From positions 1 to 26,678 of the IMG/VR virus record IMGVR_UViG_3300049190_000011: DNA of 26,678 nucleotides. The stretch is one strand, 5' to 3'. Each line of letters begins with the position of its first letter. The stretch's first letter is position 1. The notes beneath the pieces were generated by a model. It made no database searches. It saw nothing but the letters and a program-made list of their open reading frames with translations, and was not told where the DNA came from. Both the position numbers and the translations under genes were made by a program. Below are positions 893 through 19,759 of this stretch, one piece after another. The stretch comes from a virus (taxonomy: Duplodnaviria; Caudoviricetes).

Positions 893-1131
893 GTAGTAGG
901 CCTCCCTTTCTGAATGATTTCACGATTACGCTGAACGTGAACTCCAACGTAGGTGTTCACCATGAAGTCTTCATCAGCGGCCGCCAGAATAGCTTCTGCC
1001 CATTCCTTCTGCTGCAGAGCGTACCGACGAATTTGAGCGATCATTGTGGCAGCATCTTGGCGACCCCAGTCAGCAAGACCACTCCCACTAGCCAAGCCAG
1101 GAAGGTGAATGCTTGTCATGCGATCTGCCAT
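889..1131 (-). CDS. hypothetical protein (80 aa, MADRMTSIHL...)
   Basis: Start re-called to ATG 1131 (TGATG overlap with upstream stop); stop overlaps the next ATG. Confidence 0.65.
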   Translation of the reverse strand: MADRMTSIHLPGLASGSGLADWGRQDAATMIAQIRRYALQQKEWAEAILAAADEDFMVNTYVGVHVQRNREIIQKGRPTT

Positions 1132-1691
1132 CACAAGGGCTCCTTTTGCTCTTCGCCATACAGGTAGGTGCGCCACGGCACCTTCATGCGCCAGCGGTCG
1201 CTGAGGTGATTGGTGTCGCGCATGCTGGTGCAGGGGTTGGACTGGATGTACCAGCCGATGTGCTCCAGCACCGGGTTGTTGCTCTTCACCCAAAAGCCCC
1301 AGCGGCGGCCCTTGATGTAGGGCCCGCGCCACACCAGCGTGTGGAGAGGCCACTTGCCATTGACGGGACCGAGCACCCGGTGGGTGTGGGTGAAGTCGCG
1401 AAAGTACCAGCGCCAGGCGGTGACCGGGCTGATGGTAATCGTACCGTCGTGCTGCATCACCTCTTCAAGGTAGGTGGAGAACGGGAACGCCCAGAAGCGC
1501 CAGGGGTGATCGTGCGGGTCTGGGTCCTCATCGCCCCGGTAGAAGACGTGCCAGAGCAGCTGTCCCCAGGGGGTCATTGGGGTGATGGGAACGCGCGCCA
1601 GGTAGAGGGTCCGCTCGCCATGGCGGCCGCTGCCGTAGATGAGCTCGGCCCAGCCGAGCCAGCCGAGAAAGGTGAGAAGTCGCTTGAGCAT
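1131..1691 (-). CDS. cupin-like conserved phage protein
   Basis: RBS AGGAGGG then ATG 1691 (MLKRLL...). His-rich motifs HVF..D.DPDPHDHPW.F and HTHRV, then TLVWRGP..RRWGFW. Confidence 0.55.
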   Translation of the reverse strand: MLKRLLTFLGWLGWAELIYGSGRHGERTLYLARVPITPMTPWGQLLWHVFYRGDEDPDPHDHPWRFWAFPFSTYLEEVMQHDGTITISPVTAWRWYFRDFTHTHRVLGPVNGKWPLHTLVWRGPYIKGRRWGFWVKSNNPVLEHIGWYIQSNPCTSMRDTNHLSDRWRMKVPWRTYLYGEEQKEPL

Positions 1692-6443: not shown

Positions 6444-6445
6444 GA

Positions 6446-6772
6446 TCAGGCCTCCCAGTAGCAGGCCAGGTCGGTGCAGTCGGTCTCGCCAAGCTCCATC
6501 CGGTTGAGCCAGTAGCGGCAGATGCCCATGTCAGTGGCCACCTCCTGCTGTGTCTTGTTGCAGCGGCGGCGCATGATGAAGCACCGCTCATGGGCCTTGA
6601 GGGTGCCGACACGCACCGACGGTGCGCTGGCGTCGAGGTCACGCTCCCACCGGCTGTATCGGCTCAACGGCACCTCTAGCCGGGCGGCGGCCGCGCGCTG
6701 GCGCTCCTGGCGGCGACGACGATCAATGGTCAGACGCTCTCCGCGTGTTAGTTTCTGTGGCGCGTCAACCAT
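6446..6772 (-). CDS. tandem Cro/XRE-type HTH protein
   Basis: Two HTH-like repeats: RQRAAAARLEVPLSRYSRWERD and TQQEVATDMGICRYWLNRMELG. Confidence 0.8.
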   Translation of the reverse strand: MVDAPQKLTRGERLTIDRRRRQERQRAAAARLEVPLSRYSRWERDLDASAPSVRVGTLKAHERCFIMRRRCNKTQQEVATDMGICRYWLNRMELGETDCTDLACYWEA

Positions 6773-7155
6773 CGTATGAGCTCCTCACCTTCCAATCGGT
6801 CCCAGATCACGAGTGCGAGCTCGCGCAATCGGGGTTGTGTTACTTTCCCCAGGTGCCGGGCGGCGGTCTCCCCATCGAAGAGCAGCCACTCACGCCCCAC
6901 CTGGAGCAGGAGGTAGGCGTGGAAGCCCTTCCTCCATCTGCGTTTGAGCCAGACCCGCTGCTGAGGGGTGAAATGCTTCACCCGCACCGGAGCTTCATCC
7001 GACCCTTTGGGCCACCGGGGTAGCCACTTGAGCTCCACCCAGCCGACCGAATAGTTGACATCCGGGGTACCTGGGTAGACCTTATTCTCGACCGCCATGG
7101 CGTCGAGTGGGCGCAGGGCGCGCACCACGCGACCCCGCATATTGCTTTCAGCCAC
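6748..7155 (-). CDS. VRR-NUC / PD-(D/E)XK nuclease, putative Holliday junction resolvase
   Basis: GTPDV...WVELK...FTPQQRVWL. Confidence 0.75.
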   Translation of the reverse strand: MAESNMRGRVVRALRPLDAMAVENKVYPGTPDVNYSVGWVELKWLPRWPKGSDEAPVRVKHFTPQQRVWLKRRWRKGFHAYLLLQVGREWLLFDGETAARHLGKVTQPRLRELALVIWDRLEGEELIRWLTRHRN

Positions 7156-7645
7156 GAGCCACCTGTGGACCGTATGCCTGATTGTGGTACTTGCCGTCGT
7201 ACGAGCGTTCAGTCGGCTCGTCCAGGCGGTGGAACACTACCTGGGCAATAGCCTGCCCCTCGACAAGCCGGATGGGCTTGGGGCCCTTGTTGCTGAGCTC
7301 CAATGTCAGCCAGCCCTCCCAGCCTGGCTCGATCACGGTGTTGAACACGCTGAGGCCCAGGCGAGCGAGGCTGGACTTGTCGTGGACGATGCCGAGCACG
7401 TCGTTCGGCATGGTGAACCGCTCAACCCCGGCCGCCAGCGTGAACTCACCGGGGTTGAGCATGCAGTACCGGCCGTCCGGATGAGCGTAGGCCTTCTTGA
7501 TCATGGGGTCGGGCTCGGAGCCGAGCACCAGCCTCAAGTCGTAGCCAGCAGGCCCCAGACCATAGCTGAGGCCGCGCTCCTGGGTCCGCTCGGCACAGGG
7601 CTCCAGGATGTTCAAGCGGCGGATGGTCTGTCCGGAAAGTATCAT
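7148..7645 (-). CDS. dcd: dCTP deaminase (trimeric dUTPase fold)
   Basis: MILS start, PAGYDLRL, DKSSLARLG, IEPGWEGWLTLEL, IAQVVF, YDGKYHNQ. Confidence 0.85.
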   Translation of the reverse strand: MILSGQTIRRLNILEPCAERTQERGLSYGLGPAGYDLRLVLGSEPDPMIKKAYAHPDGRYCMLNPGEFTLAAGVERFTMPNDVLGIVHDKSSLARLGLSVFNTVIEPGWEGWLTLELSNKGPKPIRLVEGQAIAQVVFHRLDEPTERSYDGKYHNQAYGPQVARG

Positions 7646-7666: not shown

Positions 7667-9643
7667 CTACTTTGCCTCGCCCCACGAGGGACCGATCTCG
7701 GTATCTACGCGGAATGGCACCTCAGCCTTGCGCACGTCCCGCATCACGGCCGCCATGGCGTAGGCCTCATCCCGGCTCTCAACAGAGCCGTCGATCTCGT
7801 CGTGCACCTGCAGCTGCAGGAAGTGTCCAGCCGCGTCGAGCTCGACCAGCGCCTCCTTGGTCTGGTCGGCGCTGGAGCCCTGGATGAGCCGGTTCAGCGC
7901 CTTGTGCGTCCAGTCATAGGAGCCGTCTGGCTTCTGAGGGAAGTGGAGCTTGCGGCCACCAATGGTCTTGATGAAGCCGTTCTTCTTCGCCTGGGCCTCA
8001 GCCTTCTTCGCCAGCTGTTTGATGAACGGCGCGCGGCTATCAAATTTGTCGATGATCTCCTGGCCTTCTTCGCCAGCGGCCTCGAACATGTAGCCGTCTT
8101 CGACCTCACGGCGCGCTTCCAGGGCCTCTTCACGGGTCGCATGGTAGCTGACCCGGCGCTCCCTCCCACGCCCAGAGGCCAGAGCCCAGCGGGTGGGGAG
8201 ACCGCAGTCACGGCTCAGCTTCGCGCCGCCCTCACCGTAGCAGAGCCCTAGGTAGAGGTTCTTGGCGTACTTCCGGGGCAGGCCGGTCAGGTCGGCCATG
8301 AATTGGTGATTGTCGAGGTTGGGGTCGTCCCAGTAGGCCTTGGCCGCCACCCGCGCCTTGGGCAGGTCCATGATGGCCGCGAAGTGCGTGGTCCACCGGG
8401 GCTCCTGCTGGCTGTAGTCGTTCGCCACCCACTCGCAGCCTTCCTCAGGGATGTAGATCGAGCGCCACATGGCGGCGAACTCATCCCGGCTCGGCTGCTG
8501 CTGGAGGTTGGGGTCGACGCAGCTGAGGCGGCCGTAGCGCGCGCCCTTCTGGTCGCCCTTCTCGTCCTCACGAGCGATCTGGTTGAAGGTGCAGTGGATG
8601 CGGCCGTTGACCATGTAGTTGCGCACCGACGCGGCGAAGGTGGTGCGCAGCTTGTTGACCTTGCGAGCCCAGGCGATCGAGGTTGCCACCTCGTGGTCGA
8701 TGCCACCGAGCAGGAACTTGTCGATCTGAGGCTGCCCTGTACTCGTCTCTTCGAGCTTGATGCCGATGGCCTCCAGCGCCGGAGCAAGGGCACCGGCCTT
8801 CCACACGTCGCCGATGGCTATGCTGTGACCGGTGTGGTGTTTGACCCGCGCCAGCGCCTCAGCCTCTTGGGTCATCGACCACTCTTCGACCTGGCGCAGC
8901 TTCTCAAGATCGATGCGCACCCCGCGCCGCCGCATGCGGACTAGGCAGGGAAGCACTCGGCTCTCTAGGTTCCACACACCCCACAGGTCTTCATCGTCGA
9001 TGCGGCGCTCCTGGCGGCGCATGATGAGCAGCGGCTGCTGAGTGTCGGCCTCGGCGTAGGGGCCCACGTAGCGCGCCGGGAGCCGCCACATGCCACTCTT
9101 GGGGTCCACCCCGTAGATGCGTGCGGCTTCCTCCAGCAGGGACACGTCCTTGCCCGGCAGGCCATTGCGCTCGGCTATGTTCTGCAGTGAGAAGCTGTGG
9201 TGGAGCTCGTAGATCAGCGGGTCGGCGATCTGGATGTCTCGGAAGTAGCGGACCTCCTTGAAGTCGACCTCATCTTCGAGAAGGTAGTCTAGGTCGTACT
9301 GCAGGTTCGCGCCGACCAAGTCGCCCTTGAAGACCTTCGCCTGGGCTCGCAGGTAGGCCAGCACCTGGGCCTCGTCTAGGTTGTCCCCGCCCTCGTGCCG
9401 CATGGGCAGGTAGGCACTAGGGCCGTCTTCGATCGTGAAGCTGACCCCGGTGATGAAGCCCCCGCGCCGGACCCCGATGCCCAGCTGCTTGAGGTGAGGG
9501 TCCTTGGTTTCAACGTCGACGCAGACCCGCTTGGCGTCGGCCCAGGAGGGCAGTGAGCCCAGGGAGGGAGGGCTCCACTGGCTCTCCGGGGCGAACAAAG
9601 GCATTTGCAGCGGACCCCCGCTGCCAGACTTTCTCGCTGCCAT
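7667..9643 (-). CDS. polA: DNA polymerase family A with 3'-5' exonuclease
   Basis: Exo motifs DVET, NLQYD, YAEAD; GRLSCVDPNLQQQP; motif A DYSQQEPR, motif B RKYAKNLYLGLCYG, motif C VHDE. Confidence 0.95.
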   Translation of the reverse strand: MAARKSGSGGPLQMPLFAPESQWSPPSLGSLPSWADAKRVCVDVETKDPHLKQLGIGVRRGGFITGVSFTIEDGPSAYLPMRHEGGDNLDEAQVLAYLRAQAKVFKGDLVGANLQYDLDYLLEDEVDFKEVRYFRDIQIADPLIYELHHSFSLQNIAERNGLPGKDVSLLEEAARIYGVDPKSGMWRLPARYVGPYAEADTQQPLLIMRRQERRIDDEDLWGVWNLESRVLPCLVRMRRRGVRIDLEKLRQVEEWSMTQEAEALARVKHHTGHSIAIGDVWKAGALAPALEAIGIKLEETSTGQPQIDKFLLGGIDHEVATSIAWARKVNKLRTTFAASVRNYMVNGRIHCTFNQIAREDEKGDQKGARYGRLSCVDPNLQQQPSRDEFAAMWRSIYIPEEGCEWVANDYSQQEPRWTTHFAAIMDLPKARVAAKAYWDDPNLDNHQFMADLTGLPRKYAKNLYLGLCYGEGGAKLSRDCGLPTRWALASGRGRERRVSYHATREEALEARREVEDGYMFEAAGEEGQEIIDKFDSRAPFIKQLAKKAEAQAKKNGFIKTIGGRKLHFPQKPDGSYDWTHKALNRLIQGSSADQTKEALVELDAAGHFLQLQVHDEIDGSVESRDEAYAMAAVMRDVRKAEVPFRVDTEIGPSWGEAK

Positions 9644-9646
9644 CGG

Positions 9647-10087
9647 TCAGAGGCTCGCGTCTTGGGTGGTGCCCTGGCTGTGGATCATGCGGCACGTGGC
9701 GATGAGCGAGCGGATGTCTTTCTGCGCCTCCAGCAGGTGCTGCCGGTTGCTCCAGTGCAGAAGCATGTTGAGCGCCCCGGCTTCGACCGCGTCGCAGCCG
9801 TTCACCCGGCAGAATTCGGCGATGGTCTCGTGCGGCACCACCCCGCGCGGCAGGCGGACCCCCTCGTCATAGAGCTCGATGAGCTTCTGGACGTAGTGGT
9901 CGGCCTTCTCAAGGTCCTGGAGCCCGTTCTTCTTGCGCCAGCGGGCCACGTACTTGGTGGCGCAGCCCTCTAGGTAGCCGATCCCGTGGCGCTCGATCAG
10001 GTCCCAGTGTTCGAGCAGCCCATTCTTGTAGTGGTCACCGCCGACCTGGCGTTGGTTAGCAGACAGCAAGCCCATTTCATCCTCCAT
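9647..10087 (-). CDS. DUF3310-family protein (T7 gp1.7-like), possible nucleotide kinase
   Basis: ATG 10087 in TGATG overlap; QVGGDHYK...WDLI...GYLEGCATKYVARWRKKNGLQDLEKADHY. Confidence 0.7.
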   Translation of the reverse strand: MEDEMGLLSANQRQVGGDHYKNGLLEHWDLIERHGIGYLEGCATKYVARWRKKNGLQDLEKADHYVQKLIELYDEGVRLPRGVVPHETIAEFCRVNGCDAVEAGALNMLLHWSNRQHLLEAQKDIRSLIATCRMIHSQGTTQDASL

Positions 10088-10641
10088 CACTCGCAGAGCT
10101 CCTTGATCACGCCCGACTGGCGTGGCAGGAGGTTCTCGCGCGCCTTGAGCGCATCGAGCAGGGCCTGTCCGCGTGGCGGCAATGGCACCTCGTCGAAGTA
10201 CCGTTCGATCTCGGTGAGCCCTTCCTGAGCGTACAGGTTGCCCCGAAGCAGCTGCTCCTTGCTCCACAGCCAGAACTCCAGCCGGTCACAGGCCTTGAGC
10301 TTGGCAAAGTCGAGCTCGTCCAGATCGTGCTCGGCCGGGAGACCGAGCGAATGATTGATGCGGGTCTCCAGCTTGCCGACCTCGTTCTTGAAGCCGGGCA
10401 CGTAGCGACCCACCGGAGCCGGGCTGTCGCCTACCCAGGCCTCAGGCACGTCGTGGCTGAGGCAGTAGGCCGCCAGCCGGGGGAAGTCGTCCGGCCACAG
10501 GTACCACATCAGCATGGCGACGCCCCAGCTGTGGGCCGCATTCGAGTAGGACCCTTGGTGGAGGATGCCGTGGCACCGCTCAACCGCGCCGCCTGAGCGG
10601 CTCTGGATGACCGCATTGGCCATGTTGTTCCAGTCGCTCAT
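10087..10641 (-). CDS. HD-domain 5'-deoxynucleotidase (YfbR-like)
   Basis: SNAAHSWGV, LSHDVPEAWVGD.PAP, KACDRLE. Confidence 0.8.
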   Translation of the reverse strand: MSDWNNMANAVIQSRSGGAVERCHGILHQGSYSNAAHSWGVAMLMWYLWPDDFPRLAAYCLSHDVPEAWVGDSPAPVGRYVPGFKNEVGKLETRINHSLGLPAEHDLDELDFAKLKACDRLEFWLWSKEQLLRGNLYAQEGLTEIERYFDEVPLPPRGQALLDALKARENLLPRQSGVIKELCE

Positions 10642-11693
10642 GCCTCAGCTTCCTCTTCACGCTTCGCCTGGGCGTCACGACGGCGCTCCAGCCATTCCTG
10701 ACAGGCCACGCGCCAATCGGCCGCATGACATTGGCTGAGGTTCTCGAAGGCGAGCTCGAACCGCTCAAGGTCATCGCTCTCCTTGTAGGCTTGGTGGGCC
10801 AGCCACATGGGAATAGCGACGCGGCGAAAGAACGGGTCACGAAGCCCAGGGGTGGGTCCAACGTCGAGGAACACGCTCAGGTCCTCGCGCCACTGCTTGA
10901 TGTTGGTGGAGACGAGCGGGTAGGGCTCGACCAGTCCCTCGGCATAGGGGTTGTAGGGCACCCGCTGGAGGATGGGCTGCACCTGCTCCAGTGTGGCGTG
11001 GTAGGCGTGGAGGTTGTTGCTCATCTGGTAGAGCCGACCGACCGGCACACCGACCCCAGCCGCCAGGAATTCCTGGAGGTACGAGAAGTGGACCGCGTTG
11101 GCCCCATAGGCACCCCACACCACGTCGTTCGAGCGGTTGCACAGCGTCATGTCCAGCCGCCCTTCGGTGCTGACCGAGACGTAGATGTGCGTGTTACAGG
11201 GCACGTCCTTGCCCCCGGCGCGCGCGGTCGGCGGGTCGACATGGCCGTCCCACATGCTGATGACCTGGCGGCGGTCGTCAGGGTTGTGCTTGAGCGCCTC
11301 GATCACGTCAAGCAGCTGGTCCTGCAGCATGAAGCCCTCGCCATCAGGGGTCTGCTGCTGAAACCACTTGAGCCAGCGCGCGCCATAGGCCCCGTGCAGG
11401 GTCTTGCCGTCGTCGCTGAACGTCTTCATCCGCTTGACGAAGTGCGCCACGTACTTCACGTCGTTGCGCCCCGCCAGCATCCACAGGCTCTCGAAGAGGT
11501 GGAAGAACGGGTTAGCATCGCGCTCTGGGTAGTAAATCACCCGCTCGCACGGCTCTTCATAGACGGTCGTGACCGGACCCGGAAACAGGCGCACGGGCCC
11601 GTTCCTGCTCTCGCGGTCGATGCCTACCTGGTCCAGGTCGACGAGCGCCTTGGGCAGCGCCTCCTGGACGTTCCGGGTCCGGATCACATGCAT
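10638..11693 (-). CDS. thymidylate synthase-family dUMP hydroxymethyltransferase
   Basis: ESRNG, NPFFHLFESLWML.G, RRQV, catalytic PCN, NRSND..WG..GAN (Asn at the dUMP-specificity position), NLHAY; located in a 5-hmdU modification cluster. Confidence 0.85.
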   Translation of the reverse strand: MHVIRTRNVQEALPKALVDLDQVGIDRESRNGPVRLFPGPVTTVYEEPCERVIYYPERDANPFFHLFESLWMLAGRNDVKYVAHFVKRMKTFSDDGKTLHGAYGARWLKWFQQQTPDGEGFMLQDQLLDVIEALKHNPDDRRQVISMWDGHVDPPTARAGGKDVPCNTHIYVSVSTEGRLDMTLCNRSNDVVWGAYGANAVHFSYLQEFLAAGVGVPVGRLYQMSNNLHAYHATLEQVQPILQRVPYNPYAEGLVEPYPLVSTNIKQWREDLSVFLDVGPTPGLRDPFFRRVAIPMWLAHQAYKESDDLERFELAFENLSQCHAADWRVACQEWLERRRDAQAKREEEAEA

Positions 11694-11694
11694 G

Positions 11695-12312
11695 TTAGGC
11701 GGCCTCCCGCACGATGCCGAGCTCGGCATTGAGGTCGCTGATGAGGGTGGCCGGGAGATTGCCCTTCGGCCCCGCCATCACCTCAGGCAGGAAGTCCTGC
11801 ACCTCAGGCCACACCTCGACCAGACGGCCGATCGTGGTGACGCTCTCGATGACCGCCTTGACCTTGGCGCGAAGGGCGCGCTCGCGCTCTTCGACATCCT
11901 TGTTCATGGCGTCGAGCACCGCCTTGGCGTCCCGCACCGCGTTGCGTGCGGCCATGTAGGGGTGGTCAGGGCGGATGATCGAAGCAATGTGGGTGCCGTG
12001 GCGGCTGTTGTGGACCTCGTAGGGCACCCGCTGTGCGTCGGCGAACTTGATCTCCAGCACCTCGTTGGTGTCTTCGACCGCCACCTTGACGCTGCTGGCC
12101 TTCGGAAACCAGCCATCGGGAGCAGCCTGGAGCCGCTTGCGATCGAGCTCCGAGAAGGCTGCCTCGTAGCCAGCCTGGTCGCGCTCCTTGGTGAGCAACC
12201 GGAGCTTCTCGTCTTGTTCAGCGATCAGCAGCCGGTCGGCTGCGAACCGCTGGGTCAGGGCATTGGCAATGATGCCGTCCCTGAGCTCGGCATTGATACG
12301 AATTGTCGACAT
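11695..12312 (-). CDS. Nmad5 (nucleotide modification associated domain 5)-like protein
   Basis: MSTIRINAELRD.II.NAL start; C-terminal SVTTIGRLVEVWPEVQDFLP...LP; position between transferase and hydroxymethylase. Confidence 0.7.
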   Translation of the reverse strand: MSTIRINAELRDGIIANALTQRFAADRLLIAEQDEKLRLLTKERDQAGYEAAFSELDRKRLQAAPDGWFPKASSVKVAVEDTNEVLEIKFADAQRVPYEVHNSRHGTHIASIIRPDHPYMAARNAVRDAKAVLDAMNKDVEERERALRAKVKAVIESVTTIGRLVEVWPEVQDFLPEVMAGPKGNLPATLISDLNAELGIVREAA

Positions 12313-12313
12313 G

Positions 12314-13201
12314 TCATCCCTTTCTCGGTTGGTACCTCTGCTTCGGCGCGCCCTCACCTAAGCGAGCGCGCTCGTATTTGTCGAACTCACACAGCGTGTG
12401 TTCGACATCGCGCATCTCCCAGCGAGGCCAGTCGACCGGCCAGAAAGCCGGGTCGAGCGACTGTGCCAGAAGACAACGCATCCCCGCAATCAGCGTCTGC
12501 TGGTCGCGTGGACCCTGGTAGCGCAGCGTCCCTAAAGGGAGACCCTGCACCCGGCAGAGCCCCCGCGCCGCTCCTGGGCCTGCCGACGCCCACGTCATAA
12601 TGTCCGGGGCCTCGTTGAGCATGCTGGTGTGGCGCAGGTCTGTCACGATCTCGTAGGCCATGAACGCCCCCAGGTAAGGGAAGCCGCACAGCACCTCGTG
12701 GACCGCCTTGAGCTCGGTCGTGTCGTCACAGGCATAGGCCATCACCCCGCACTCAGGCCCGACCGCGCTGATGCACTGCAGCAGGCCGTCGACCTTGTCC
12801 ATACCGGGCGGGCTCTTGATCATGTAGGCAGCGCCTAGGATGGTATGCCCAGAGGCGACGCGGTCCTTGAGCAGGCGGCGCGCTTCCTCCACGTCCCAGG
12901 TGCCCAGGAGCAGGGGCTTGAGGAGCTCTCCGGTCTCGATCTTGTTGAACCACCGGAACACCACGGCCGCTAGGAACTGACGGTATCCGTCGTCACCCAG
13001 CGGCTCCCGGATGTTGTCCTTGAACCACCGGGTGACCCGGTCGTCTTCGCGGAACACATTGCAGAAGCGGTAAGCCGCCAAGATGGGGTCGTCAGTCCAC
13101 GGGGCCCCGGCTCCATCGGTCAGCGCCAGGTCGAGCTCCTTGGTCAGCATCAGCTGGTAGCGAGCTCGCGCGTAGGCGAAGAACCGCTCAGCGCCTTGCA
13201 T
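12314..13201 (-). CDS. alpha-glutamyl/putrescinyl thymine pyrophosphorylase clade 1 (aGPT-Pplase1)
   Basis: PWTDDPIL..YRFCNVFREDDRVT, FRWFNK, G.FMAYEIVTDL, GPGAARGL, EHTLCEFDKY.R. Confidence 0.85.
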   Translation of the reverse strand: MQGAERFFAYARARYQLMLTKELDLALTDGAGAPWTDDPILAAYRFCNVFREDDRVTRWFKDNIREPLGDDGYRQFLAAVVFRWFNKIETGELLKPLLLGTWDVEEARRLLKDRVASGHTILGAAYMIKSPPGMDKVDGLLQCISAVGPECGVMAYACDDTTELKAVHEVLCGFPYLGAFMAYEIVTDLRHTSMLNEAPDIMTWASAGPGAARGLCRVQGLPLGTLRYQGPRDQQTLIAGMRCLLAQSLDPAFWPVDWPRWEMRDVEHTLCEFDKYERARLGEGAPKQRYQPRKG

Positions 13202-13487
13202 TGAACCGCTCCGCAACACGCTTGGCGAAACCGGCCGTGTTGAGCTCAGGCGGCATTTGCAGGCTGCTGTGCGTGACGACAATGCGCTTGTCGTCCAGCG
13301 TCCCAGCCATGCTCTTGAGCGCCACCGAGACCATGCTGCTGAACAAGAGCAGCATGGCCGCGTCCCAATAGCGGTACTGGTCGAGCAGGCGCAGCATGCC
13401 GACGATCACGAGCAGGTCGAACATCGACAAATTCTCGCGGGTGGTGTAGGCCGCGCAACGGCGGCAGAACCTCCAGAACCTCTTCAC
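13188..13487 (-). CDS. small membrane protein (99 aa)
   Basis: GTGA overlap with the kinase stop; hydrophobic segments LSMFDLLVIVGML and AAMLLLFSSMVSVAL. Confidence 0.55.
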   Translation of the reverse strand: MKRFWRFCRRCAAYTTRENLSMFDLLVIVGMLRLLDQYRYWDAAMLLLFSSMVSVALKSMAGTLDDKRIVVTHSSLQMPPELNTAGFAKRVAERFNARR

Positions 13488-14119
13488 AGCCCTAGCTCCT
13501 TCTTGATGATCTCCAGCCCCTGGTCGCGGTCGGCCCAGACGGCGCGCACCCCGGCCTCGTCCAGCCGCTTCATGGATGTCTTCACCCCGCTGAACTTGCT
13601 GGCTGTGTTCTTGGGGTTGACATCACCCTTCGGCTCCGGGAGCTCCAGTAGCTTGCGGCCGCGCGCGGCGCGCTCAGCATTCTCGGCTTCGATCTTGGCC
13701 ACGCGGCGGTCGAAGTCCGCCTGGCGGCGCTGGTTTATCGAGGTGAGGCAAAGCTCCAGGGGAGTGTCCAACGCCACCACGAGCAATGGCAGGCCATCCT
13801 CGTGCAGCTTGACCGCGCGGTTGACCTCTGCGCTGATGAGCAGGCCCTCGTAGAGCACGTCCATCCCCGCGCTGTGCGACTGCCGTACGAGCTCATAGAT
13901 GTGGTCTTGGTCGGTGATCGTGTCGCAGCCACCACAGGCGGTCTCGTAGTGGCCGATCACTGCCAGCGGCCGCCCACCAGCCGGGTGCTGGTAGATGTAG
14001 CCAATTGGTCGCTTCCTGTCCGGCACCTTGACTGCTGCCTTGGAAGGATAGCAAGCCATCACCGCCCTAGCCAGCGTGGTCTTACCAGACCCCGACGTTC
14101 CCCTGATGTTTATGATCAT
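13484..14119 (-). CDS. 5-hydroxymethyluracil DNA kinase (5-HMUDK, P-loop)
   Basis: MIINIRGTSGSGKTT, GHYETACGGCDTI, VLYEGLL, LDTPLELCL.SI..RR; cluster context. Confidence 0.85.
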   Translation of the reverse strand: MIINIRGTSGSGKTTLARAVMACYPSKAAVKVPDRKRPIGYIYQHPAGGRPLAVIGHYETACGGCDTITDQDHIYELVRQSHSAGMDVLYEGLLISAEVNRAVKLHEDGLPLLVVALDTPLELCLTSINQRRQADFDRRVAKIEAENAERAARGRKLLELPEPKGDVNPKNTASKFSGVKTSMKRLDEAGVRAVWADRDQGLEIIKKELGL

Positions 14120-14526
14120 GCTGCAGTCCTCATGTAAGCGAGCAACCGTTCGACATCTTGGAGCGTGAACTTGCCCTTCATGCTGTTGGCAATCTTGGTG
14201 ACCACAGCGACATTACCCTTAACATAGCCTCTGTCGTTATTGACGCGATCTAAGGTTGGGGTAAATGGTGTGTTGGTGGGCCCGAACGGAACGTCTAGAA
14301 TTGGACATCGAGCAGGAATAGTGATATCGTCTTTCGTTATGTCGAACTTCAACCCATCCCTAATAGCACGACGGCGGGCATTCATGAACATCTGCCTGAC
14401 CTGCCATTCAGGAGTGTCTTTCTTCTGCTCCCTGTTGGTCTTGATATTTGCCAAAGTACGTTCCCGAAATTGCGGATCAGTCCAGTACCTGCTCAACGCA
14501 CGTTCCGGCTTCCTAGGCCCCTTCAC
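14116..14526 (-). CDS. free-standing HNH-type homing endonuclease
   Basis: GTG 14526 in GTGA overlap; ARRRA...FDIT..DI.IP.RCPIL...PTLDRVNNDRGYVKGNVAVV...ANSMK; visibly more AT-rich than flanks. Confidence 0.75.
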   Translation of the reverse strand: MKGPRKPERALSRYWTDPQFRERTLANIKTNREQKKDTPEWQVRQMFMNARRRAIRDGLKFDITKDDITIPARCPILDVPFGPTNTPFTPTLDRVNNDRGYVKGNVAVVTKIANSMKGKFTLQDVERLLAYMRTAA

Positions 14527-15437
14527 GGCTCCAGGCCCAGCGTGGCAGCAACGCCAGCCCATTGCCGTGGCATATGCCGGATGCCGCTGTTCCAGAGCGG
14601 CCTGACGGTGATGGCGTTGCCCTTGACCCGCGTCCAGGCCTCGTCATCCTCCTTGGCAGCAGGCCGCCAGCCTTCGATGAAGTCGCCCTCCTGGGCCACC
14701 TTCACCGCGCCGCCAGCCAACCGCTCGAAATTGGCCTTCCAGCGATCGTACTTCGGTGGCATGTCGAGGCTCTTGCGGCCCATGACCGGCTGCTTGATGA
14801 TCGAGCTCCCCGCGTACCAGTAGGGCGTCCCTGGCACCGGGTAGGCGTAGGCCATGATGAAGCGGCCCTCCCGGAAGTAGAAGGCAGGGCGGCGCTCTTC
14901 ACCGTTCAACTGGTAGAGCGAGCGGTCGTAGTCGAGCTCGACGAGCCGGGTCCAGCCCCAATACACATGGCCCAGGCGGCGGCCCCAGCCGTGAGCCTGG
15001 ATGTACCAATCCACGTCGTCCATCTTGGGGGCGAAGGCGGCCTGCACCTCGCCACCAGCGAAGAGCTCGCGCGTCTTCGGCACGAGCAGCTGAGCGTTGA
15101 GGTGGTAGGAGCTCGGCCCAGCCAGCCACAGGCCGCTCTCCATCTGCTCACGAGCGTAGTTGCCGCCGTGCGGGGGGCTCTTGGTCGAGTACACGAAGCG
15201 CGCTTCCTCGGTCGCGCCATCGAACAGGTCCTGGGCATGCCACTGAGCCCACACCTCCCGGCATGCCTCGTCGGGGCCGAATTTCTCGGAGCCAGACGGG
15301 TAGATGGCCCCGGTGGAAGCCTGCCAGGCGACGCGCGGGTCATGGCTGTCGTGCCATGAAAAATCAATCTCCTTGCGCCACAGTAACCGAGCGAGCATCG
15401 ACCCCGTCAGTCCCATTCCCTCAATATGAACGCGCAT
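14523..15437 (-). CDS. FAD-dependent oxidoreductase (glycine/D-amino-acid oxidase-like), putative DNA-acting flavin lyase
   Basis: Rossmann motif VHIEGMGLTGSMLA, AWQASTG, late EGWRP; sits downstream of aGPT-Pplase2. Confidence 0.75.
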   Translation of the reverse strand: MRVHIEGMGLTGSMLARLLWRKEIDFSWHDSHDPRVAWQASTGAIYPSGSEKFGPDEACREVWAQWHAQDLFDGATEEARFVYSTKSPPHGGNYAREQMESGLWLAGPSSYHLNAQLLVPKTRELFAGGEVQAAFAPKMDDVDWYIQAHGWGRRLGHVYWGWTRLVELDYDRSLYQLNGEERRPAFYFREGRFIMAYAYPVPGTPYWYAGSSIIKQPVMGRKSLDMPPKYDRWKANFERLAGGAVKVAQEGDFIEGWRPAAKEDDEAWTRVKGNAITVRPLWNSGIRHMPRQWAGVAATLGLEP

Positions 15438-15907
15438 CAAATTCGTCCTTCCTGTTGCATTTGGCGCATGTTCTGCCGTCTGCGAGCTCGCTCTACCGGA
15501 TCAGCCGCCAAAGCCAACGATTGTCTTCGGAGGCGATCTCTCACTGCAGGATCAGCTGCTTTCTTCTTGAGAGTTTCGCTCACCTGTTTCTTGAATTGCG
15601 CCGTTCGGCGGCAGCCCTTAGGACTACTGGCGGCGGGGTTAATATTGTAACCGTGCCGAGCCGCCCCGGTCTTGTCAATCCATTGCTGTTCAAGCTCATC
15701 CAGCTGCCCAGGGAGGCAAACCTCGACCACAGAAAAGGTGAAGCATTGCTCCCCGTACTTGTTCCAAGCGCGCTGCAGCTTCACGTTCCAGTGAGCACCT
15801 TTCCGGAGAAGGTTCTTGTGGTCGCGCTGCCGCTTAGCCAGCCTGAGAGCTTGGCCAATGTAGCAGCGACCACGAGGGCCGTCAATCCGGTAGATACCAC
15901 AATCCAT
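15437..15907 (-). CDS. free-standing GIY-YIG homing endonuclease (Seg-like)
   Basis: GIYRI...CYIGQA...R..DH...L.KG.H.N.KLQRAWNKYG...EQQWID...GYNI; basic C-terminal tail. Confidence 0.85.
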   Translation of the reverse strand: MDCGIYRIDGPRGRCYIGQALRLAKRQRDHKNLLRKGAHWNVKLQRAWNKYGEQCFTFSVVEVCLPGQLDELEQQWIDKTGAARHGYNINPAASSPKGCRRTAQFKKQVSETLKKKAADPAVRDRLRRQSLALAADPVERARRRQNMRQMQQEGRI

Positions 15908-16767
15908 CAATGCGAGCCCTTCGGCATGGCGTGGAGCATACCCCTGGCAGTCTCACTCGCCTCAGCCCAGCCGGTCAACCCGTGCCTGATCTCGTCAATA
16001 TCATTGAACAGAGGATAGTGGCCATTCAGGTGTGATTTGTGCTTGCAGAGCACCGTCTCCACCTCCTGCAAGCCAACAGGGCGCTCGTGATGGGGTGGAG
16101 CCGTGAAGCCCTTGAAGTGGTCGGTGAGGTGAGCGACCACCTCGTTAATCACGAGCTCTTGGTCCTTGGGCTTGGCGTTCTCCGGGAGACCCATCTTCCA
16201 ACGCCAGAACATTAAGGCTGACTTGACAGGGTCATCGAACATGAAGACCGCAGCCTGGTCGAAGTCCACCCCGACAATGCCCAGGCGGTCGAGCATGTCG
16301 CAGACCTTGAAGCTGATCCAGGGTCCGAACAGAGGGAGCTCCTTGGCGCGCCCTGCCACCAGGGCGTAGGGCAGCGGGCCCTCGCCAGCGGCGATCTCTT
16401 CCACCATCTGGTGCGGGTTGTCCATGAAGCGGCCCCAGAGCTTGGTGACCGCCTTGACGGCTGCCTCACCCCGGAAGTGCCGCCGCTCGCTGCCCCTGGG
16501 CCACCGGCCGCCATCGGGGGCCTCGGTCTCGTTCTTGGCGGCGATGCTCATGCGCTGCCAGAATTCCTTGCCACCGGCTTCGCTGATGTAGGAGGCCGCG
16601 CCGCAATGGTAGAAGCACCAATAGGCGATGAGCCAGCGGTCCCGCTGCTCAGCGTCCATCCACTCCATCTTGCTCAACGCAATGTAGACCGGGTCAAGGT
16701 CCCCGGTCTCGAGAAGGCGTGCCCCGAATTCATAGATGTCGAGGCGAGGGTAATTTCGTCCGGCCAT
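15907..16767 (-). CDS. amino acid:DNA transferase (aGPT-Pplase2)
   Basis: ATG 16767 after AGAAAGGGAG; LLETGDLDPVY, RWLIAYWCFYHCG, WPRGSERRHFRG, FGPWISFKVCDMLDR, QEVETVLCK.KSH.NGHY. Confidence 0.85.
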   Translation of the reverse strand: MAGRNYPRLDIYEFGARLLETGDLDPVYIALSKMEWMDAEQRDRWLIAYWCFYHCGAASYISEAGGKEFWQRMSIAAKNETEAPDGGRWPRGSERRHFRGEAAVKAVTKLWGRFMDNPHQMVEEIAAGEGPLPYALVAGRAKELPLFGPWISFKVCDMLDRLGIVGVDFDQAAVFMFDDPVKSALMFWRWKMGLPENAKPKDQELVINEVVAHLTDHFKGFTAPPHHERPVGLQEVETVLCKHKSHLNGHYPLFNDIDEIRHGLTGWAEASETARGMLHAMPKGSH

Positions 16768-16776
16768 GTGTGCTCC

Positions 16777-16815
16777 CTTTCTGCTCCCGACCGTCGCGCG
16801 GCCGGGAGCAGAAGG
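16777..16815 (-). promoter_or_regulatory. stem-loop abutting the RBS of the first modification gene
   Basis: Minus strand TTCTGCTCCCG-G-CCG-cgcga-CGG-T-CGGGAGCAGAA running into AGGGAG. Confidence 0.55.
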
Positions 16816-16822
16816 CAATCGC

Positions 16823-17377
16823 TTACTTGTGGATGGTGATGCGGCCGTCCGCATCCTGCTTCATGCCGTAGCCGACATAGTAGTGCAGGAGACGAATGCC
16901 TTCATAGCAGGTCTTCTTGGCGACTTCCGGGTCCATACCCTTCTTCGAGCCCCAGGTCGCAGCCAGTGCCTCGTCGAAGGTCGCACCCGGCTTGGTGGAG
17001 AAGAGCTCGACCAGCTTGGCGCGGAAGGTGCCGGGGCGAACCGCCTTGATCTCGTCACCGGCCGGGAATACGAAGCGCATGCCGCGCGGCTTGCGGGTCC
17101 TCTTCTCGTCCTTGGGAGCAGGGGCGGTCTTGCCCTTGTCGTCGGCTCCGAGGCTCTCGTCGTTCGCCTGGTCGTAGGCTTCCAGCGCCGCCCAAGTCCG
17201 CTTGATAGCCGTCTTGGTGTCGGCGAAACGCTTGGTGGTGCTGAGGCCGAGGTTGGACCGAACCAGGTTGTGGAGCTCGACCAGCTGTGCGCCGGTCAGC
17301 TGGTCCAGGAACAGGTCTGCACCGTTCTCAGCGGCGGTGCGGGTTTGGGCATAGGTCTTGCCGAGGAACTTGATCAT
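16823..17377 (-). CDS. two-domain basic protein with possible winged-helix (DUF3489-like) C-terminus
   Basis: ATG 17377 after AGAAAAGGAG; low-complexity linker; GTFRAKLVELF...GATFDEALAATW. Confidence 0.6.
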   Translation of the reverse strand: MIKFLGKTYAQTRTAAENGADLFLDQLTGAQLVELHNLVRSNLGLSTTKRFADTKTAIKRTWAALEAYDQANDESLGADDKGKTAPAPKDEKRTRKPRGMRFVFPAGDEIKAVRPGTFRAKLVELFSTKPGATFDEALAATWGSKKGMDPEVAKKTCYEGIRLLHYYVGYGMKQDADGRITIHK

Positions 17378-17412
17378 GGGTAGTCTCCTTTTCTGTGTTG
17401 GCACTTTCTAGC

Positions 17413-17504
17413 CACCGCTGGCCCTGACTTCATCGACTGTTCACCAAGCATTTATATCCCGCCTCCTGGATTGCGGCCTGGTCTCCCTCAGGTGACCAGC
17501 GGTG
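17413..17504 (-). ncRNA. candidate structured RNA or 5' leader (~92 nt)
   Basis: Terminal stem CACCGCUGGU/GCCAGCGGUG continued by CCUGA/UCAGG; inner ACCAGGC/GCUUGGU; starts just after promoter-like copy B. Confidence 0.45.
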
Positions 17505-17505
17505 T

Positions 17506-17547
17506 TGAGAGACCCTATCTCTCACGCTGCAACAGAAGACAACCCCC
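17506..17547 (-). promoter_or_regulatory. putative phage promoter, copy B
   Basis: GGGGG-TTGTCTTCTG-N13-GATAGG-N3-TCTCA preceded by AAAATA; same layout as 3957-3998. Confidence 0.6.
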
Positions 17548-17914
17548 TATTTTGATCTGGCGTCATTTTCTGAGACCGTCCCTTCGCTGGACCGCGCGCC
17601 AGGTTCACGCCTTTGGGTACGAGCTCAGTGCAGTCGATGCACAAGGTCCCGTGGTCGCATCCATGATCGAGGTTCTGCCCAAGAGGGACGCGTAGGGTCG
17701 GTATCTTGCCAGCCAGGAACGCGGCGAAGACGTGAGCGCGCACCGTGTTGTGCTCGCTGTCCACCCAGAAGCTCCCGTAGGGCCCCGACCATGGCCGCTG
17801 CCCTCCCCGGCTCTTGGCTCCGGTCCAGACCCTGCAGCCGTCCGGTTTGTTCTCCAGGTATTGGAGGAAGCGGGCCTCCAGCTGCATCAGGTAGCAAGGG
17901 GTGAGCTCTGCCAC
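17522..17914 (-). CDS. HNH/His-Cys-box-like endonuclease, divergent
   Basis: RBS AGAAAAGGAG; GCRVWTGA...YGSF...RAH.FA...LDHGC....C...ELV...N. Confidence 0.65.
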   Translation of the reverse strand: MAELTPCYLMQLEARFLQYLENKPDGCRVWTGAKSRGGQRPWSGPYGSFWVDSEHNTVRAHVFAAFLAGKIPTLRVPLGQNLDHGCDHGTLCIDCTELVPKGVNLARGPAKGRSQKMTPDQNRGLSSVAA

Positions 17915-17928
17915 GGTGGTCTCCTTTT

Positions 17929-18270
17929 CTATACCTCAATCACTCGAATGCCAGCGCGCCGGGAGCGCCGCACCATGTCGGCTGTGCCCCGGCCACCTGG
18001 GAAGGCCACCACTAGGTCAGGCTGACCCTTGGTGAGCATCTCCTGATTGCGCCGGGGCCCTGCAGACAAGCCGAAACGGCTCCAGTCGGCCGGGTAGGCT
18101 TCCAGCCGGATGCCGCGCCTGAGGCCCCAGGCCTCACCTAGCTGGTCAGCGCCGCGCGCCGCGCCATGGATGATCGTGGTGATCGGCTGCTCGGCTCCCA
18201 CCTGCTGCAGAACCTGATCAACACGAGACTTGTTCTGATAGTCCCGGCCGCCACACACGAGCACCCTCAT
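17929..18270 (-). CDS. SLOG-superfamily protein (YspA/DUF2493-like)
   Basis: RVLVCGGRDY, IIHGAARGADQL, ADW...G.SAGPRRNQEML, VVAFPGGRGTADMV. Confidence 0.85.
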   Translation of the reverse strand: MRVLVCGGRDYQNKSRVDQVLQQVGAEQPITTIIHGAARGADQLGEAWGLRRGIRLEAYPADWSRFGLSAGPRRNQEMLTKGQPDLVVAFPGGRGTADMVRRSRRAGIRVIEV

Positions 18271-18530
18271 TTCCGCTTCTCCACACGGTAGCGTATCATG
18301 AAGCGGCCGTGGACCTTCACCTTCTTGAGATAGGGGTTGTTCGCGGGCCCGTCGAGCACCGGCTTGCCCTTAGCGTCCAAGGCATACTTGATCAGCCACC
18401 CTTCGGCTGTGTTGATCTCAACAACGTCTGTGACCAGCTGCTCCTGGACGATGTCCCATATCTCCAGGTCCATCCAGTCGTGTGGCGGACCACCCGCCAC
18501 CGCGTAGGTGGGGGCGGTCTTGAAGGTCAT
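18267..18530 (-). CDS. hypothetical protein (87 aa)
   Basis: ATGA overlaps at both ends; phage-like codon usage. Confidence 0.7.
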   Translation of the reverse strand: MTFKTAPTYAVAGGPPHDWMDLEIWDIVQEQLVTDVVEINTAEGWLIKYALDAKGKPVLDGPANNPYLKKVKVHGRFMIRYRVEKRK

Positions 18531-19759
18531 GCAGCGACGCTCATGCTGTGCTGGGAAACGTAAGCCTGGAGCTCGCTGTAGCCACCGACCAGTGTGCCGT
18601 TGTGGTACACTTGGGGGAAGGTCTTGTGCCCCTGGGCCTTGAACGCGGCGATGTCGTCCTCAGACACGTGCTCCTGAACCACCGGGGTAAAGCCCAGGGA
18701 GGTGAGGAGGTTCTTGGCGTCCACGCAGTGGGGGCAGCCTGGCTTGCTGAGCACCTGCCACTCTGAGGGCAGCACCCCGGCTTCCTCGAACATCGAGAAG
18801 GCGTCGTCCCAGCTGCCAGTGACCGAGGCCTTGGAATAGTCGGTGGCCTTGTTCTCGAAGAAGTTGACGTGCTCCTTGCCGCTGACCAGCACGTCCACCC
18901 ACGGCAGCGGGTTTTCAGCGATGTTGTAGAGCGGCTCCAGCCCCAGCTGCCCCAGGCGGCGATCGGCGATGTAGCGGATGTAGGTCTTCACCTCGTCAGG
19001 GGTGAGCCCTTCGATATCGGCCTCGCCATAGGCCAGGTCGATGAAGCGGTCTTCCATGTGGACCATGCGGTCGCAGTCCTGGTAGATGCGGTTGCGGAGC
19101 TCGGTGGTCCACAGGCCGGGGTGCTCGTCCAGCAGAGCGTGGAACACCTTGACCATGGACGCCACGTGGTGGCTCTCGTCGCGGATGGACCAGCTGATGA
19201 CCTGCCCCATGCCCTTCATCTTGCCGAAGCGGGTGAAGTTGAGCAGGATGACGAAGCTAGCGAACAGCTGCAGGCCTTCGCCGAAGGCGCTGAACACCGC
19301 GATGTCGCGCGCCAGCCCTTCCAGACCGTCGCCGCTCGCCTCGCACATCATCTCGTGCTTCTGGCGCATCTCGTCATATTCCATGAACGCTGCATACTCG
19401 GCTTCCGGGATGCCGAGCTCGTCGATCAGCGTCGAGTAGGCCTGGATGTGGACCCCTTCACGCGCGGCGATAGAGGCCATCATCATCCGGAGCTCGACCG
19501 GCTTGAACAGGGGCAGGTAGCGGTCGATGTAGCATTCGGCCACGTCGACGTCGGCCTGGGTGAAGAAGCGGAACACCTGGGTGAGCAGGTTGCGCTCGTC
19601 GTCGTTGAGCTTGGCCTTCCAGTCCTGCACGTCGACGTTCAGCGGCACCTCGCGCACCAGCCAGTGCATCTGCTCGCTCTCGACGAAGGCCTGATACGCC
19701 CACGGGAACCAGAATGGCTTGTAGGCGGTGCGCTTGGTGAACAGGGATGGAGTTTGCAT
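18527..19759 (-). CDS. nrdB: class Ia ribonucleotide reductase beta subunit with C-terminal glutaredoxin domain
   Basis: Metal ligands QADVDV, EGVH (radical Tyr in HIQAY), EGLQLF, DESHH; tail NFFENKATDY; then SKPGCPHC...TFPQV...VGGY. Confidence 0.93.
   Translation of the reverse strand: MQTPSLFTKRTAYKPFWFPWAYQAFVESEQMHWLVREVPLNVDVQDWKAKLNDDERNLLTQVFRFFTQADVDVAECYIDRYLPLFKPVELRMMMASIAAREGVHIQAYSTLIDELGIPEAEYAAFMEYDEMRQKHEMMCEASGDGLEGLARDIAVFSAFGEGLQLFASFVILLNFTRFGKMKGMGQVISWSIRDESHHVASMVKVFHALLDEHPGLWTTELRNRIYQDCDRMVHMEDRFIDLAYGEADIEGLTPDEVKTYIRYIADRRLGQLGLEPLYNIAENPLPWVDVLVSGKEHVNFFENKATDYSKASVTGSWDDAFSMFEEAGVLPSEWQVLSKPGCPHCVDAKNLLTSLGFTPVVQEHVSEDDIAAFKAQGHKTFPQVYHNGTLVGGYSELQAYVSQHSMSVAA

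What the first reader, a model, noticed from the sequence alone, without database searches (positions are those of the whole stretch)
9647..16767. Thymidine-hypermodification cluster of the flavin type with no acetyltransferase: possible free 5-aminomethyl-dU or another end product
Seen: dUMP hydroxymethylase, 5-HMUDK, aGPT-Pplase2 and an FAD oxidoreductase in one coupled operon. No GNAT acetyltransferase, PLP decarboxylase or radical SAM gene is recognisable anywhere in the window. Established: 5-hmdU in DNA is phosphorylated by 5-HMUDK and substituted with an amino acid by the transferase. In M6 a radical SAM and a PLP enzyme give 5-aminoethyl-dU; in PaMx11 a flavin enzyme gives 5-aminomethyl-dU, which an acetyltransferase then acetylates. 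Here the gene after the flavin enzyme is an HNH endonuclease. Inference: the virion DNA may carry unacetylated, cationic 5-aminomethyl-dU, or that amine is derivatised by another enzyme.
Basis: partly seen in the sequence, partly recalled or inferred. Interest (0 to 1): 0.82.

Follow-up and report, generated by a model that had tools for sequence, protein, structure and literature searches.

The report
Second flavoenzyme family for phage thymidine
This phage's thymidine-modifying gene cluster holds a flavoenzyme-fold protein from an unnamed family rather than the known PaMx11 enzyme, and no acetyltransferase, so its DNA likely carries a bare, positively charged aminomethyl-uracil, a prediction that cultured Gordonia phages with the same family would let one test.

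Summary
The cluster is real: dUMP hydroxymethylase, 5-hmdU DNA kinase, amino acid:DNA transferase (AADT) with the full glycine pocket, and a flavin-fold protein. No GNAT, PLP or radical SAM gene was found in the window, but the record is only about 42% of the genome.

The flavin protein is not the PaMx11 gp47 orthologue. Sequence and profile searches share only the N-terminal FAD motif; the predicted fold is D-amino-acid/glycine-oxidase-like (gp47: Z 18.3, 13% identity). It belongs to a closed family of 215 clusters with no Pfam model of its own. The family sits beside an AADT or kinase gene in 36 of 38 distinct loci, occupies the gp47 slot, and is fused to a gp48-like GNAT in one protein. Of 26 loci showing both partners, 24 lack a recognised GNAT.

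Best reading (about 0.5): a second glycinyl-thymidine oxidase that leaves free 5-aminomethyl-dU. Its only cultured carriers found are Gordonia cluster DR phages and Rhodococcus phage Tonitrus, whose transferase has a changed pocket. The two endonuclease genes are optional insertions. All chemistry is inferred.

The parts
15907..16767 (-). Amino acid:DNA transferase (aGPT-Pplase2/AADT), glycine-type pocket D25, E94, K154, E237, T238, C241, K242, Y251, D256
   Evidence: PF18724; phmmer to PDB 25qc E 8e-97 and 8z2m E 6e-88; pocket alignment to YuA gp10
15437..15910 (-). GIY-YIG endonuclease, optional insertion (56% GC)
   Evidence: PF01541; absent in L006, L023 and the run X2 contig, a NADAR gene in its place in L005
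14523..15437 (-). 304-aa flavoprotein-fold protein of an unnamed family (DAAO/glycine oxidase superfamily); predicted glycinyl-thymidine oxidase
   Evidence: Model pLDDT 96; fold matches; DAO-like features; family searches; motifs
14116..14562 (-). HNH/endonuclease-VII-like gene, optional insertion (52% GC)
   Evidence: PHROGs 3322, 1035, 3118; absent in L005, L006, L023, L093
13484..14119 (-). 5-hmdU DNA kinase (5-HMUDK)
   Evidence: PF18748; 52% to PaMx11 gp49
13188..13487 (-). 99-aa ORF with hydrophobic stretches, no family; seen in close relatives and weakly in gp47-type locus L083
12314..13201 (-). HMUDK helical-domain protein (aGPT-Pplase1; counterpart of M6 gp55 and PaMx11 gp50)
   Evidence: PF18723 E 8.5e-42; 52% to PaMx11 gp50
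11695..12312 (-). Nmad5 nucleotide-modification-associated protein
   Evidence: PF18757
10638..11693 (-). Thymidylate-synthase-family enzyme, predicted dUMP hydroxymethylase
   Evidence: PF00303; 53% to M6 gp58
10087..10641 (-). HD-domain nucleotidase-like protein
   Evidence: PF12917, PF13023
9647..10090 (-). DUF3310 protein
   Evidence: PF11753; start from codon model
16823..17377 (-). Conserved gene upstream of AADT (like PaMx11 gp45 and M6 gp49), function not assigned
   Evidence: PHROG 7790; 40% to PaMx11 gp45

Best explanation
This M6/PaMx11-like phage likely replaces thymidine with 5-hydroxymethyl-dU, then likely phosphorylates it in DNA, swaps the phosphate for glycine, and uses a flavoprotein-fold enzyme of a family distinct from PaMx11 gp47 to remove the glycine carbons, which would leave free, cationic 5-aminomethyl-dU as the final base. 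Shown here: the genes, their order, the glycine-type transferase pocket, the predicted fold, the lack of sequence-detectable orthology to gp47, and the lack of a GNAT in the 42% of the genome held. Inferred from close homology to tested enzymes: 5-hmdU synthesis, kinase step, glycine transfer. Inferred from fold, position and fusion only: FAD binding and oxidation of the glycine N-Calpha bond with release of glyoxylate. Inferred from absence: that the amine stays free. The likely purpose is protection from host restriction nucleases.
For: AADT keeps all six YuA glycine-pocket residues plus the catalytic Cys and the metal ligands, including K248 and Y257; putting K and Y at these two positions switched a diamine transferase to glycine (PMC13458397 passages). 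The flavin model (pLDDT 96) matches DAAO (Z 23.0, rmsd 3.6, 282 aligned), IdaA (21.4), glycine oxidase (20.7), MnmC (19.6) and gp47 (18.3). IdaA cleaves N-carboxymethyl amines and releases glyoxylate (PMC7312458 passage); MnmC1 and gp47 are proposed to do the same on modified uracil (PMC8989533). GxGxxG, D30 and the GWRP arginine R258 (249 of 251 rows) are conserved; by motif order, read by eye, R258 corresponds to gp47 R242, the proposed carboxylate ligand. The family lies beside an AADT or kinase gene in 36 of 38 distinct loci; the other two are 1.1-1.3 kb contigs. P0133 fuses the family to a GNAT weakly related to gp48, and L021 has a gp48-like GNAT in its cassette, which points to a primary amine product. 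A GNAT was seen in 2 of 26 loci that show both partners. Three of 4 complete genomes with the family have no PF00583 or PF13508 match. A close relative (79-96% nucleotide identity over shared blocks) that extends about 16 kb beyond the window has none either.
Against: No activity, cofactor or nucleoside data exist here. The protein is only 13% identical to gp47 and fits DAAO better; a shared fold does not fix the reaction. The window is 42% complete, and the structural part of the genome was not seen in any close relative. One complete relative of the same cluster type (G002/L008) has a weak GNAT two genes after the flavin gene (E 0.001); it is not gp48-like and lies among unrelated small genes. 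The same flavin family also accompanies AADTs with Asp at the K248 position in 11 of 32 loci with no diagnostic change in the flavin itself, so its substrate need not be glycinyl-thymidine everywhere. The GNAT profile used was built partly from the two loci it found, so unrelated GNATs could be missed; the Pfam scan covered 97 of 141 candidate neighbours. A cupin-like gene at 1131-1691 and the 99-aa ORF are unassigned.
Confidence: 0.5

Rival explanations
1. The flavin family acts on the amino-acylated base but does different chemistry from gp47 (for example oxidation at the 5-methylene to give 5-formyl-dU, or oxidative loss of CO2 to give an N-formyl or formimidoyl product), so the final base is a new one that needs no acetyl cap.
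For: No sequence link to gp47 beyond the FAD motif; closer fold scores to DAAO, CmiS2, IdaA and Orf1 than to gp47; gp47-type genes were followed by a tailoring-type gene in 9 of the 11 gp47 loci examined (GNAT, amidoligase plus phosphatase-like pair, or methyltransferase), while this family lacks a GNAT in 24 of 26; it pairs with two AADT pocket types. The alternative reactions are my own inference from superfamily chemistry, recalled, not from a call.
Against: Fusion and adjacency to gp48-like GNATs in P0133 and L021 fit a free amine; the carboxylate-type arginine is kept; the closest folds include enzymes that release glyoxylate from N-substituted glycines.
Confidence: 0.24
2. The enzyme makes 5-aminomethyl-dU, but a GNAT or other enzyme in the unseen 58% of the genome, or one too divergent to recognise, caps the amine, so the virion base is 5-AcNmdU or another derivative.
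For: Record is 42% complete; G002 carries a divergent GNAT that Pfam barely detects; GNAT partners exist in the family.
Against: In PaMx11, ZC01 and Epa5 the GNAT is the next gene after the flavin gene; close relatives join flavin gene and kinase directly; window plus G001 cover the replication and small-gene regions to the portal without a GNAT hit.
Confidence: 0.13
3. The flavin protein works on a free metabolite (making or removing the amine donor) or is inactive here, and the DNA ends as glycinyl-thymidine or 5-hmdU.
For: Best fold matches are soluble amino-acid oxidases; DNA binding was not tested; two endonuclease genes have inserted around the gene.
Against: Gene is intact with all family motifs; strict linkage to AADT and kinase across two unrelated cassette types; same slot as gp47 and as M6 gp52/gp53; conserved basic residues and an aromatic residue at a hairpin tip (R189, R192, F193), placed by eye like the gp47 Y180 wedge.
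Confidence: 0.13

Closest known systems
Pseudomonas phage PaMx11 5-AcNmdU pathway (gp46 AADT, gp47 flavin oxidase NGTO, gp48 GNAT, gp49 kinase; PMC8989533, PMC11472151)
   Same: Same gene order and context; AADT 51%, kinase 52%, helical-domain protein 52%, polymerase 59% identical; a DAAO/glycine-oxidase-fold protein in the gp47 slot.
   Different: The flavin protein is from another family (13% identity by structure; profile match limited to the first 36 residues); no GNAT; two endonuclease insertions; Nmad5 present.
Pseudomonas phage M6/YuA 5-NedU pathway (gp51 AADT, gp52 PLP, gp53 radical SAM, gp54 kinase)
   Same: AADT 53% with the same glycine pocket; hydroxymethylase 53%; Nmad5 and helical-domain gene in the same order.
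   Different: No PLP or radical SAM homologue; flavin-fold gene instead.
Gordonia cluster DR phages (CloverMinnie, CaiB and others, gene 5) and Rhodococcus phage Tonitrus gene 8
   Same: Same flavin family, 35-38% identical, beside AADT and kinase, no GNAT hit in the two genomes searched.
   Different: 5-hmdU would come from a TET/JBP dioxygenase; AADT has Asp at the YuA K248 position. Papers call the cassette a putative modification system and leave this gene hypothetical or unnamed (PMC11955845, PMC9302106); no chemistry in the passages read.
Stenotrophomonas phage Sonora
   Same: AADT, flavin oxidase and kinase side by side with no GNAT hit in the genome: the same predicted end product.
   Different: Its flavin enzyme is a gp47 homologue (38%), not this family; its base is not reported in the passage search of its paper.
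tRNA enzyme MnmC1; iminodiacetate oxidase IdaA; glycine oxidase ThiO; D-amino acid oxidase
   Same: Same fold (Z 19.6 to 23.0); N-terminal motif aligns weakly with IdaA (E 0.76).
   Different: 11-14% identity; these act on tRNA or free metabolites.

Membership tests
PaMx11-type 5-AcNmdU system | AADT with glycine pocket and catalytic Cys | tested here: met
   All ten positions checked match YuA, M6 and PaMx11
PaMx11-type 5-AcNmdU system | 5-HMUDK and dUMP hydroxymethylase | tested here: met
   (homology only)
PaMx11-type 5-AcNmdU system | gp47-family flavin oxidase (sequence-detectable homologue) | tested here: not met
   No tblastn, phmmer or profile hit; hhalign probability 9% and 37%, N-terminal motif only; cross-profile scores at most 16 bits
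PaMx11-type 5-AcNmdU system | gp48-type GNAT next to the flavin gene | tested here: not met
   Absent from the cluster and window
PaMx11-type 5-AcNmdU system | GNAT anywhere in the genome | tested here: inconclusive
   Record 42% complete; none in the relative G001, 55% complete
PaMx11-type 5-AcNmdU system | Product 5-NmdU or 5-AcNmdU by LC-MS | not testable with these tools
   Needs enzyme assay or virion DNA
M6-type 5-NedU system | PLP decarboxylase plus radical SAM isomerase in the cluster | tested here: not met
   tblastn best E 1.8 and 0.39; PF00291 found in M6 but not here; PF04055 none, M6 not run as control
DAAO/glycine oxidase (DAO, GR2) flavoprotein superfamily | Two-domain DAO fold | tested here: met
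   Predicted model pLDDT 96; Foldseek E 1.8e-12; Z 23.0, rmsd 3.6, 282 aligned; feature match 0.96
DAAO/glycine oxidase (DAO, GR2) flavoprotein superfamily | GxGxxG motif, acidic residue after beta-2, late GxRP arginine | tested here: met
   G7, G9, G12, D30, G256-W257-R258-P259 conserved in 92-100% of 251 rows; roles assigned from recalled family knowledge and motif order
DAAO/glycine oxidase (DAO, GR2) flavoprotein superfamily | Pfam PF01266 match | tested here: inconclusive
   None for the window protein; one distant member, P0240, scores E 4e-7
DAAO/glycine oxidase (DAO, GR2) flavoprotein superfamily | Bound FAD and amine oxidase activity | not testable with these tools
   Needs purified protein

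The most novel reading that the evidence does not exclude
The slot after the transferase holds a widespread, unnamed DNA-acting flavoenzyme family that does chemistry gp47 does not, giving a base not yet described. In Gordonia cluster DR phages it works on a non-glycine adduct made by the Asp-pocket transferase, so a cultured, easily grown phage group carries an undiscovered DNA base made entirely after replication.
Probability: 0.25. Interest if true: 0.85.

Novelty: new variant of a known kind. Interest (0 to 1): 0.6.

Why it matters
Known thymidine hypermodification routes use one flavin enzyme family, and 5-aminomethyl-dU is described as an intermediate. This finding adds a second family that Pfam-based surveys miss, occurs in both hydroxymethylase and TET/JBP cassettes, and mostly lacks the acetyl cap. 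It names a candidate function for the unassigned fifth gene of the Gordonia cluster DR and Tonitrus cassettes, which are cultured, so one LC-MS run could show whether free 5-aminomethyl-dU or a new base is a natural end product. A DNA enzyme that unmasks a primary amine would also be a labelling tool.

Tried and rejected
Orthology to gp47: rejected by tblastn, phmmer, hmmsearch and hhalign. HNH gene as functional replacement of the GNAT: rejected, it is missing in close relatives. A residue-level alignment to gp47 by hhalign failed, so motif correspondences are by eye. ViI gp247 as a serine-pocket control: too distant to align. Folding the P0133 fusion from a single sequence gave pLDDT 39 and no information. 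Search for longer fused forms (605-2000 aa) found only P0179. The AADT-flavin-kinase single product P0258 has 120-130-aa linkers that look like read-through of other frames; its DNA was not seen, so it is given little weight. Flavin differences between K- and D-type cassettes: only Ile/Val swaps (residue numbers printed there are shifted by five). The 64-kb contig behind L023 could not be searched whole. The BFVD fold search gave only other FAD oxidoreductases at 9-15% identity. Earlier findings of this scan: nothing. Iyer et al. 2013 (PMC3763556) is not held, so a prior computational mention of this family there cannot be excluded; the figures of PMC8989533 could not be seen and its supplement text (15,037 characters) had none of six terms. 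No complex prediction was run, as no binding claim is made.
Full report
Setting. The window is the whole record, an IMG/VR virus fragment estimated 42% complete. It is the replication arm of an M6/PaMx11-like phage: helicases, class I ribonucleotide reductase, PolA, dCTP deaminase and primase. PolA is 67% identical to phage Simon and 59% to PaMx11. Contigs of run X1 match most of 8000-19000 without a difference; X1 may be the source sample.

Observation. On the minus strand the order is AADT (15907-16767), GIY-YIG endonuclease, 304-aa protein (14523-15437), HNH-like endonuclease, 5-HMUDK, a 99-aa ORF, HMUDK helical-domain protein, Nmad5, thymidylate-synthase-family gene, HD protein, DUF3310, PolA. 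The genes overlap or lie a few bases apart. No GNAT, PALP-type PLP enzyme or radical SAM gene was found in the window by Pfam on 51 ORFs, tblastn with PaMx11 gp48 and M6 gp52/gp53 (best E 0.59, 1.8, 0.39), six-frame family searches or a phage GNAT profile. The two endonuclease genes have low GC (56% and 52% against about 64%). Close relatives lack them and join flavin gene and kinase directly (L005, L006, L023, L093), and a 36-kb contig in run X2 skips both. They are insertions, not part of the pathway.

Upstream steps. The hydroxymethylase candidate is 53% identical to M6 gp58, the kinase 52% to PaMx11 gp49. The AADT is 51-53% identical to the tested glycine transferases. PMC13458397 (sections 33 and 36 and passages read) defines the YuA glycine pocket as D24, E96, K159, K248, Y257, D262 and reports that Lys and Tyr at the last two variable positions switch a diamine transferase to glycine. 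The window protein has all six plus E243, T244 and C247; PhiW-14 gp109 and nACB2 differ at 248 and 257. Glycinyl-thymidine is therefore the likely intermediate.

The flavin protein is not gp47. It has no Pfam, PHROG or NCBIfam hit, whereas gp47 matches PF01266 at E 2.6e-15. tblastn against 50,697 phage records finds 8, all Gordonia or Rhodococcus phages, not PaMx11; the ZC01 gp47 orthologue finds 20 other records and none of those 8. PDB sequence searches miss the gp47 structure. Profile-profile comparison aligns only the first 31-36 residues, and cross-profile scores are at most 16 bits. The model from 118 sequences is confident (pLDDT 96.2, pTM 0.92) and has the DAAO/glycine oxidase fold: DAAO Z 23.0, CmiS2 21.5, IdaA 21.4, glycine oxidase 20.7, MnmC 19.6, and gp47 18.3 at rank 23 (rmsd 3.5, 248 aligned, 13% identity). 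The two phage families are thus distant members of one superfamily; independent recruitment and deep divergence were not told apart.

The family. A profile search of 1.84 billion representatives gives 215 proteins at E 0.001, 206 at 1e-10 and 183 at 1e-30, a sharp edge. None of the 120 listed close homologues carries a precomputed Pfam domain. Across 251 rows GxGxxG, D30, AWxASTG, HG, GWRP and GxRxxP are conserved. Read by eye in motif order, R258 matches gp47 R242, the proposed carboxylate ligand, and the R192-F193 hairpin tip matches the Y180 wedge (PMC11472151, results parts 2 and 3 read); no residue-level superposition was possible.

Context. After dropping rows with under 230 aligned residues, 59 rows fell into 38 clusters at 95% identity, the window included. 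Of these, 36 show an AADT or kinase gene, 26 show both, 2 of the 26 show a GNAT, and none of the 38 shows an M6-type PLP or radical SAM homologue. The GNAT profile included those two proteins, so I also scanned 97 of 141 candidate neighbours with Pfam: only the added L021 protein scored, and L008's appeared only at E 0.026. Two cassette types occur. Of 32 clusters with an AADT, 21 have Lys at position 248 (L027 by alignment; the script's motif call misread it) and mostly sit in M6-like hydroxymethylase clusters. Eleven have Asp there, and 10 of those show a TET/JBP gene (L042 assigned by likeness to L020). The cultured Gordonia DR phages and Tonitrus are of the second type. The flavin sequences show no diagnostic difference between the types.

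Evidence on the product. P0133 (456 aa) fuses the family to a C-terminal GNAT (PF00583 E 1e-7; 32% to gp48 over 73 residues), and L021 holds TET, a gp48-like GNAT, AADT, a distant family member and kinase in one run. Both suggest that the family releases an amine that can be acetylated, as gp47 does (PMC8989533 passages and section 21 read). IdaA, a close fold match, releases glyoxylate from N-carboxymethyl amines (PMC7312458 passage). Of four complete genomes with the family, CloverMinnie, Tonitrus and G008 have no PF00583 or PF13508 match, and G002 has a weak one two genes after the flavin gene. G001, 79-96% identical to the window over shared blocks, runs about 16 kb further to the portal with no GNAT hit. 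The structural region of this lineage was not seen.

Against. Nothing here shows activity. The fold fits soluble oxidases better than gp47. The pairing with an Asp-pocket AADT means the substrate may vary. Divergent GNATs can escape Pfam, as G002 shows. A GNAT-less flavin cluster is not unique: Sonora has one with a gp47 homologue.

Literature. Ten searches of the held library found no paper that assigns a function to this family or reports free 5-NmdU in virions; '5-NmdU' occurs in 4 papers. PMC11955845 names a five-gene system in Tonitrus with a 'hypothetical protein' (passages). PMC9302106 calls CaiB genes 1-5 nucleotide modification enzymes and names four (passages); its GenBank record labels gene 5 'oxidoreductase'. 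PMC13355239, PMC8772589, PMC9022593, PMC11946847 and PMC9413003 were searched by term only. Iyer et al. 2013 was not available, figures were not visible, and subscription journals are largely missing.

Verdict. A real cluster and a new variant of a known kind: the PaMx11 logic with a different flavoenzyme family and no acetyl cap. Free 5-aminomethyl-dU is the best single reading at about 0.5; new chemistry 0.24; capped by an unseen enzyme 0.13; flavin not acting on DNA 0.13. Interest 0.6, because the family is unannotated, widespread and testable in cultured phages.

Noticed in passing
L063 (phage Simon) 7486-8899; L082, L083, L085, L086: gp47-type flavin gene followed by an amidoligase-like gene (PF12224, weak) and a low-molecular-weight-phosphatase-like gene (PF01451) in place of the GNAT; may cap 5-aminomethyl-dU with another acyl group (the phosphatase-like ORF was not listed for L086).
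   Followed up: partly
L001:1658-2515, L002:2368-3237 and nine other clusters: TET/JBP-type cassettes carry AADTs with Asp at the YuA K248 position, suggesting a donor other than glycine in cultured Gordonia DR phages and Tonitrus.
   Followed up: partly
L061 (Sonora) 5099-7479: Cultured phage with AADT, gp47 homologue (annotated 'putative membrane protein') and kinase, no GNAT hit in the genome: a ready test for free 5-aminomethyl-dU.
   Followed up: partly
L018:2755-3477; L084:9782-10540: A FkbM-type methyltransferase directly upstream of AADT-flavin-kinase, and an N6/N4-type methylase right after a gp47 homologue; either could methylate the amine as in tRNA MnmC, or be unrelated.
   Followed up: no
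window 15437-15910 and 14116-14562; L083, L086, L026, L093, L018: Free-standing endonuclease genes recur at the borders of the tailoring slot; they may drive the swapping of tailoring genes.
   Followed up: partly
L005:2092-2517: NADAR-domain gene between AADT and flavin gene where the window has GIY-YIG.
   Followed up: no
L074:9058-9264 (G001): Close relative encodes a GcrA-like protein, by recalled knowledge a hint of an alphaproteobacterial host; another relative (L093) is binned in a Gammaproteobacteria MAG. Host unresolved.
   Followed up: no
window 1131-1691: Cupin-like gene (PHROG 4786, labelled cysteine dioxygenase), with homologues in Rhodobacter, Loktanella and Brevundimonas phages, far from the cluster.
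   Followed up: partly
window 17522-17914; 18527-19759: A third HNH-type endonuclease gene, and a ribonucleotide reductase small subunit fused to glutaredoxin.
   Followed up: no
P0179 / P0258: Predicted single products joining flavin and kinase, or AADT, flavin and kinase; linkers look like read-through and the DNA was not seen.
   Followed up: partly
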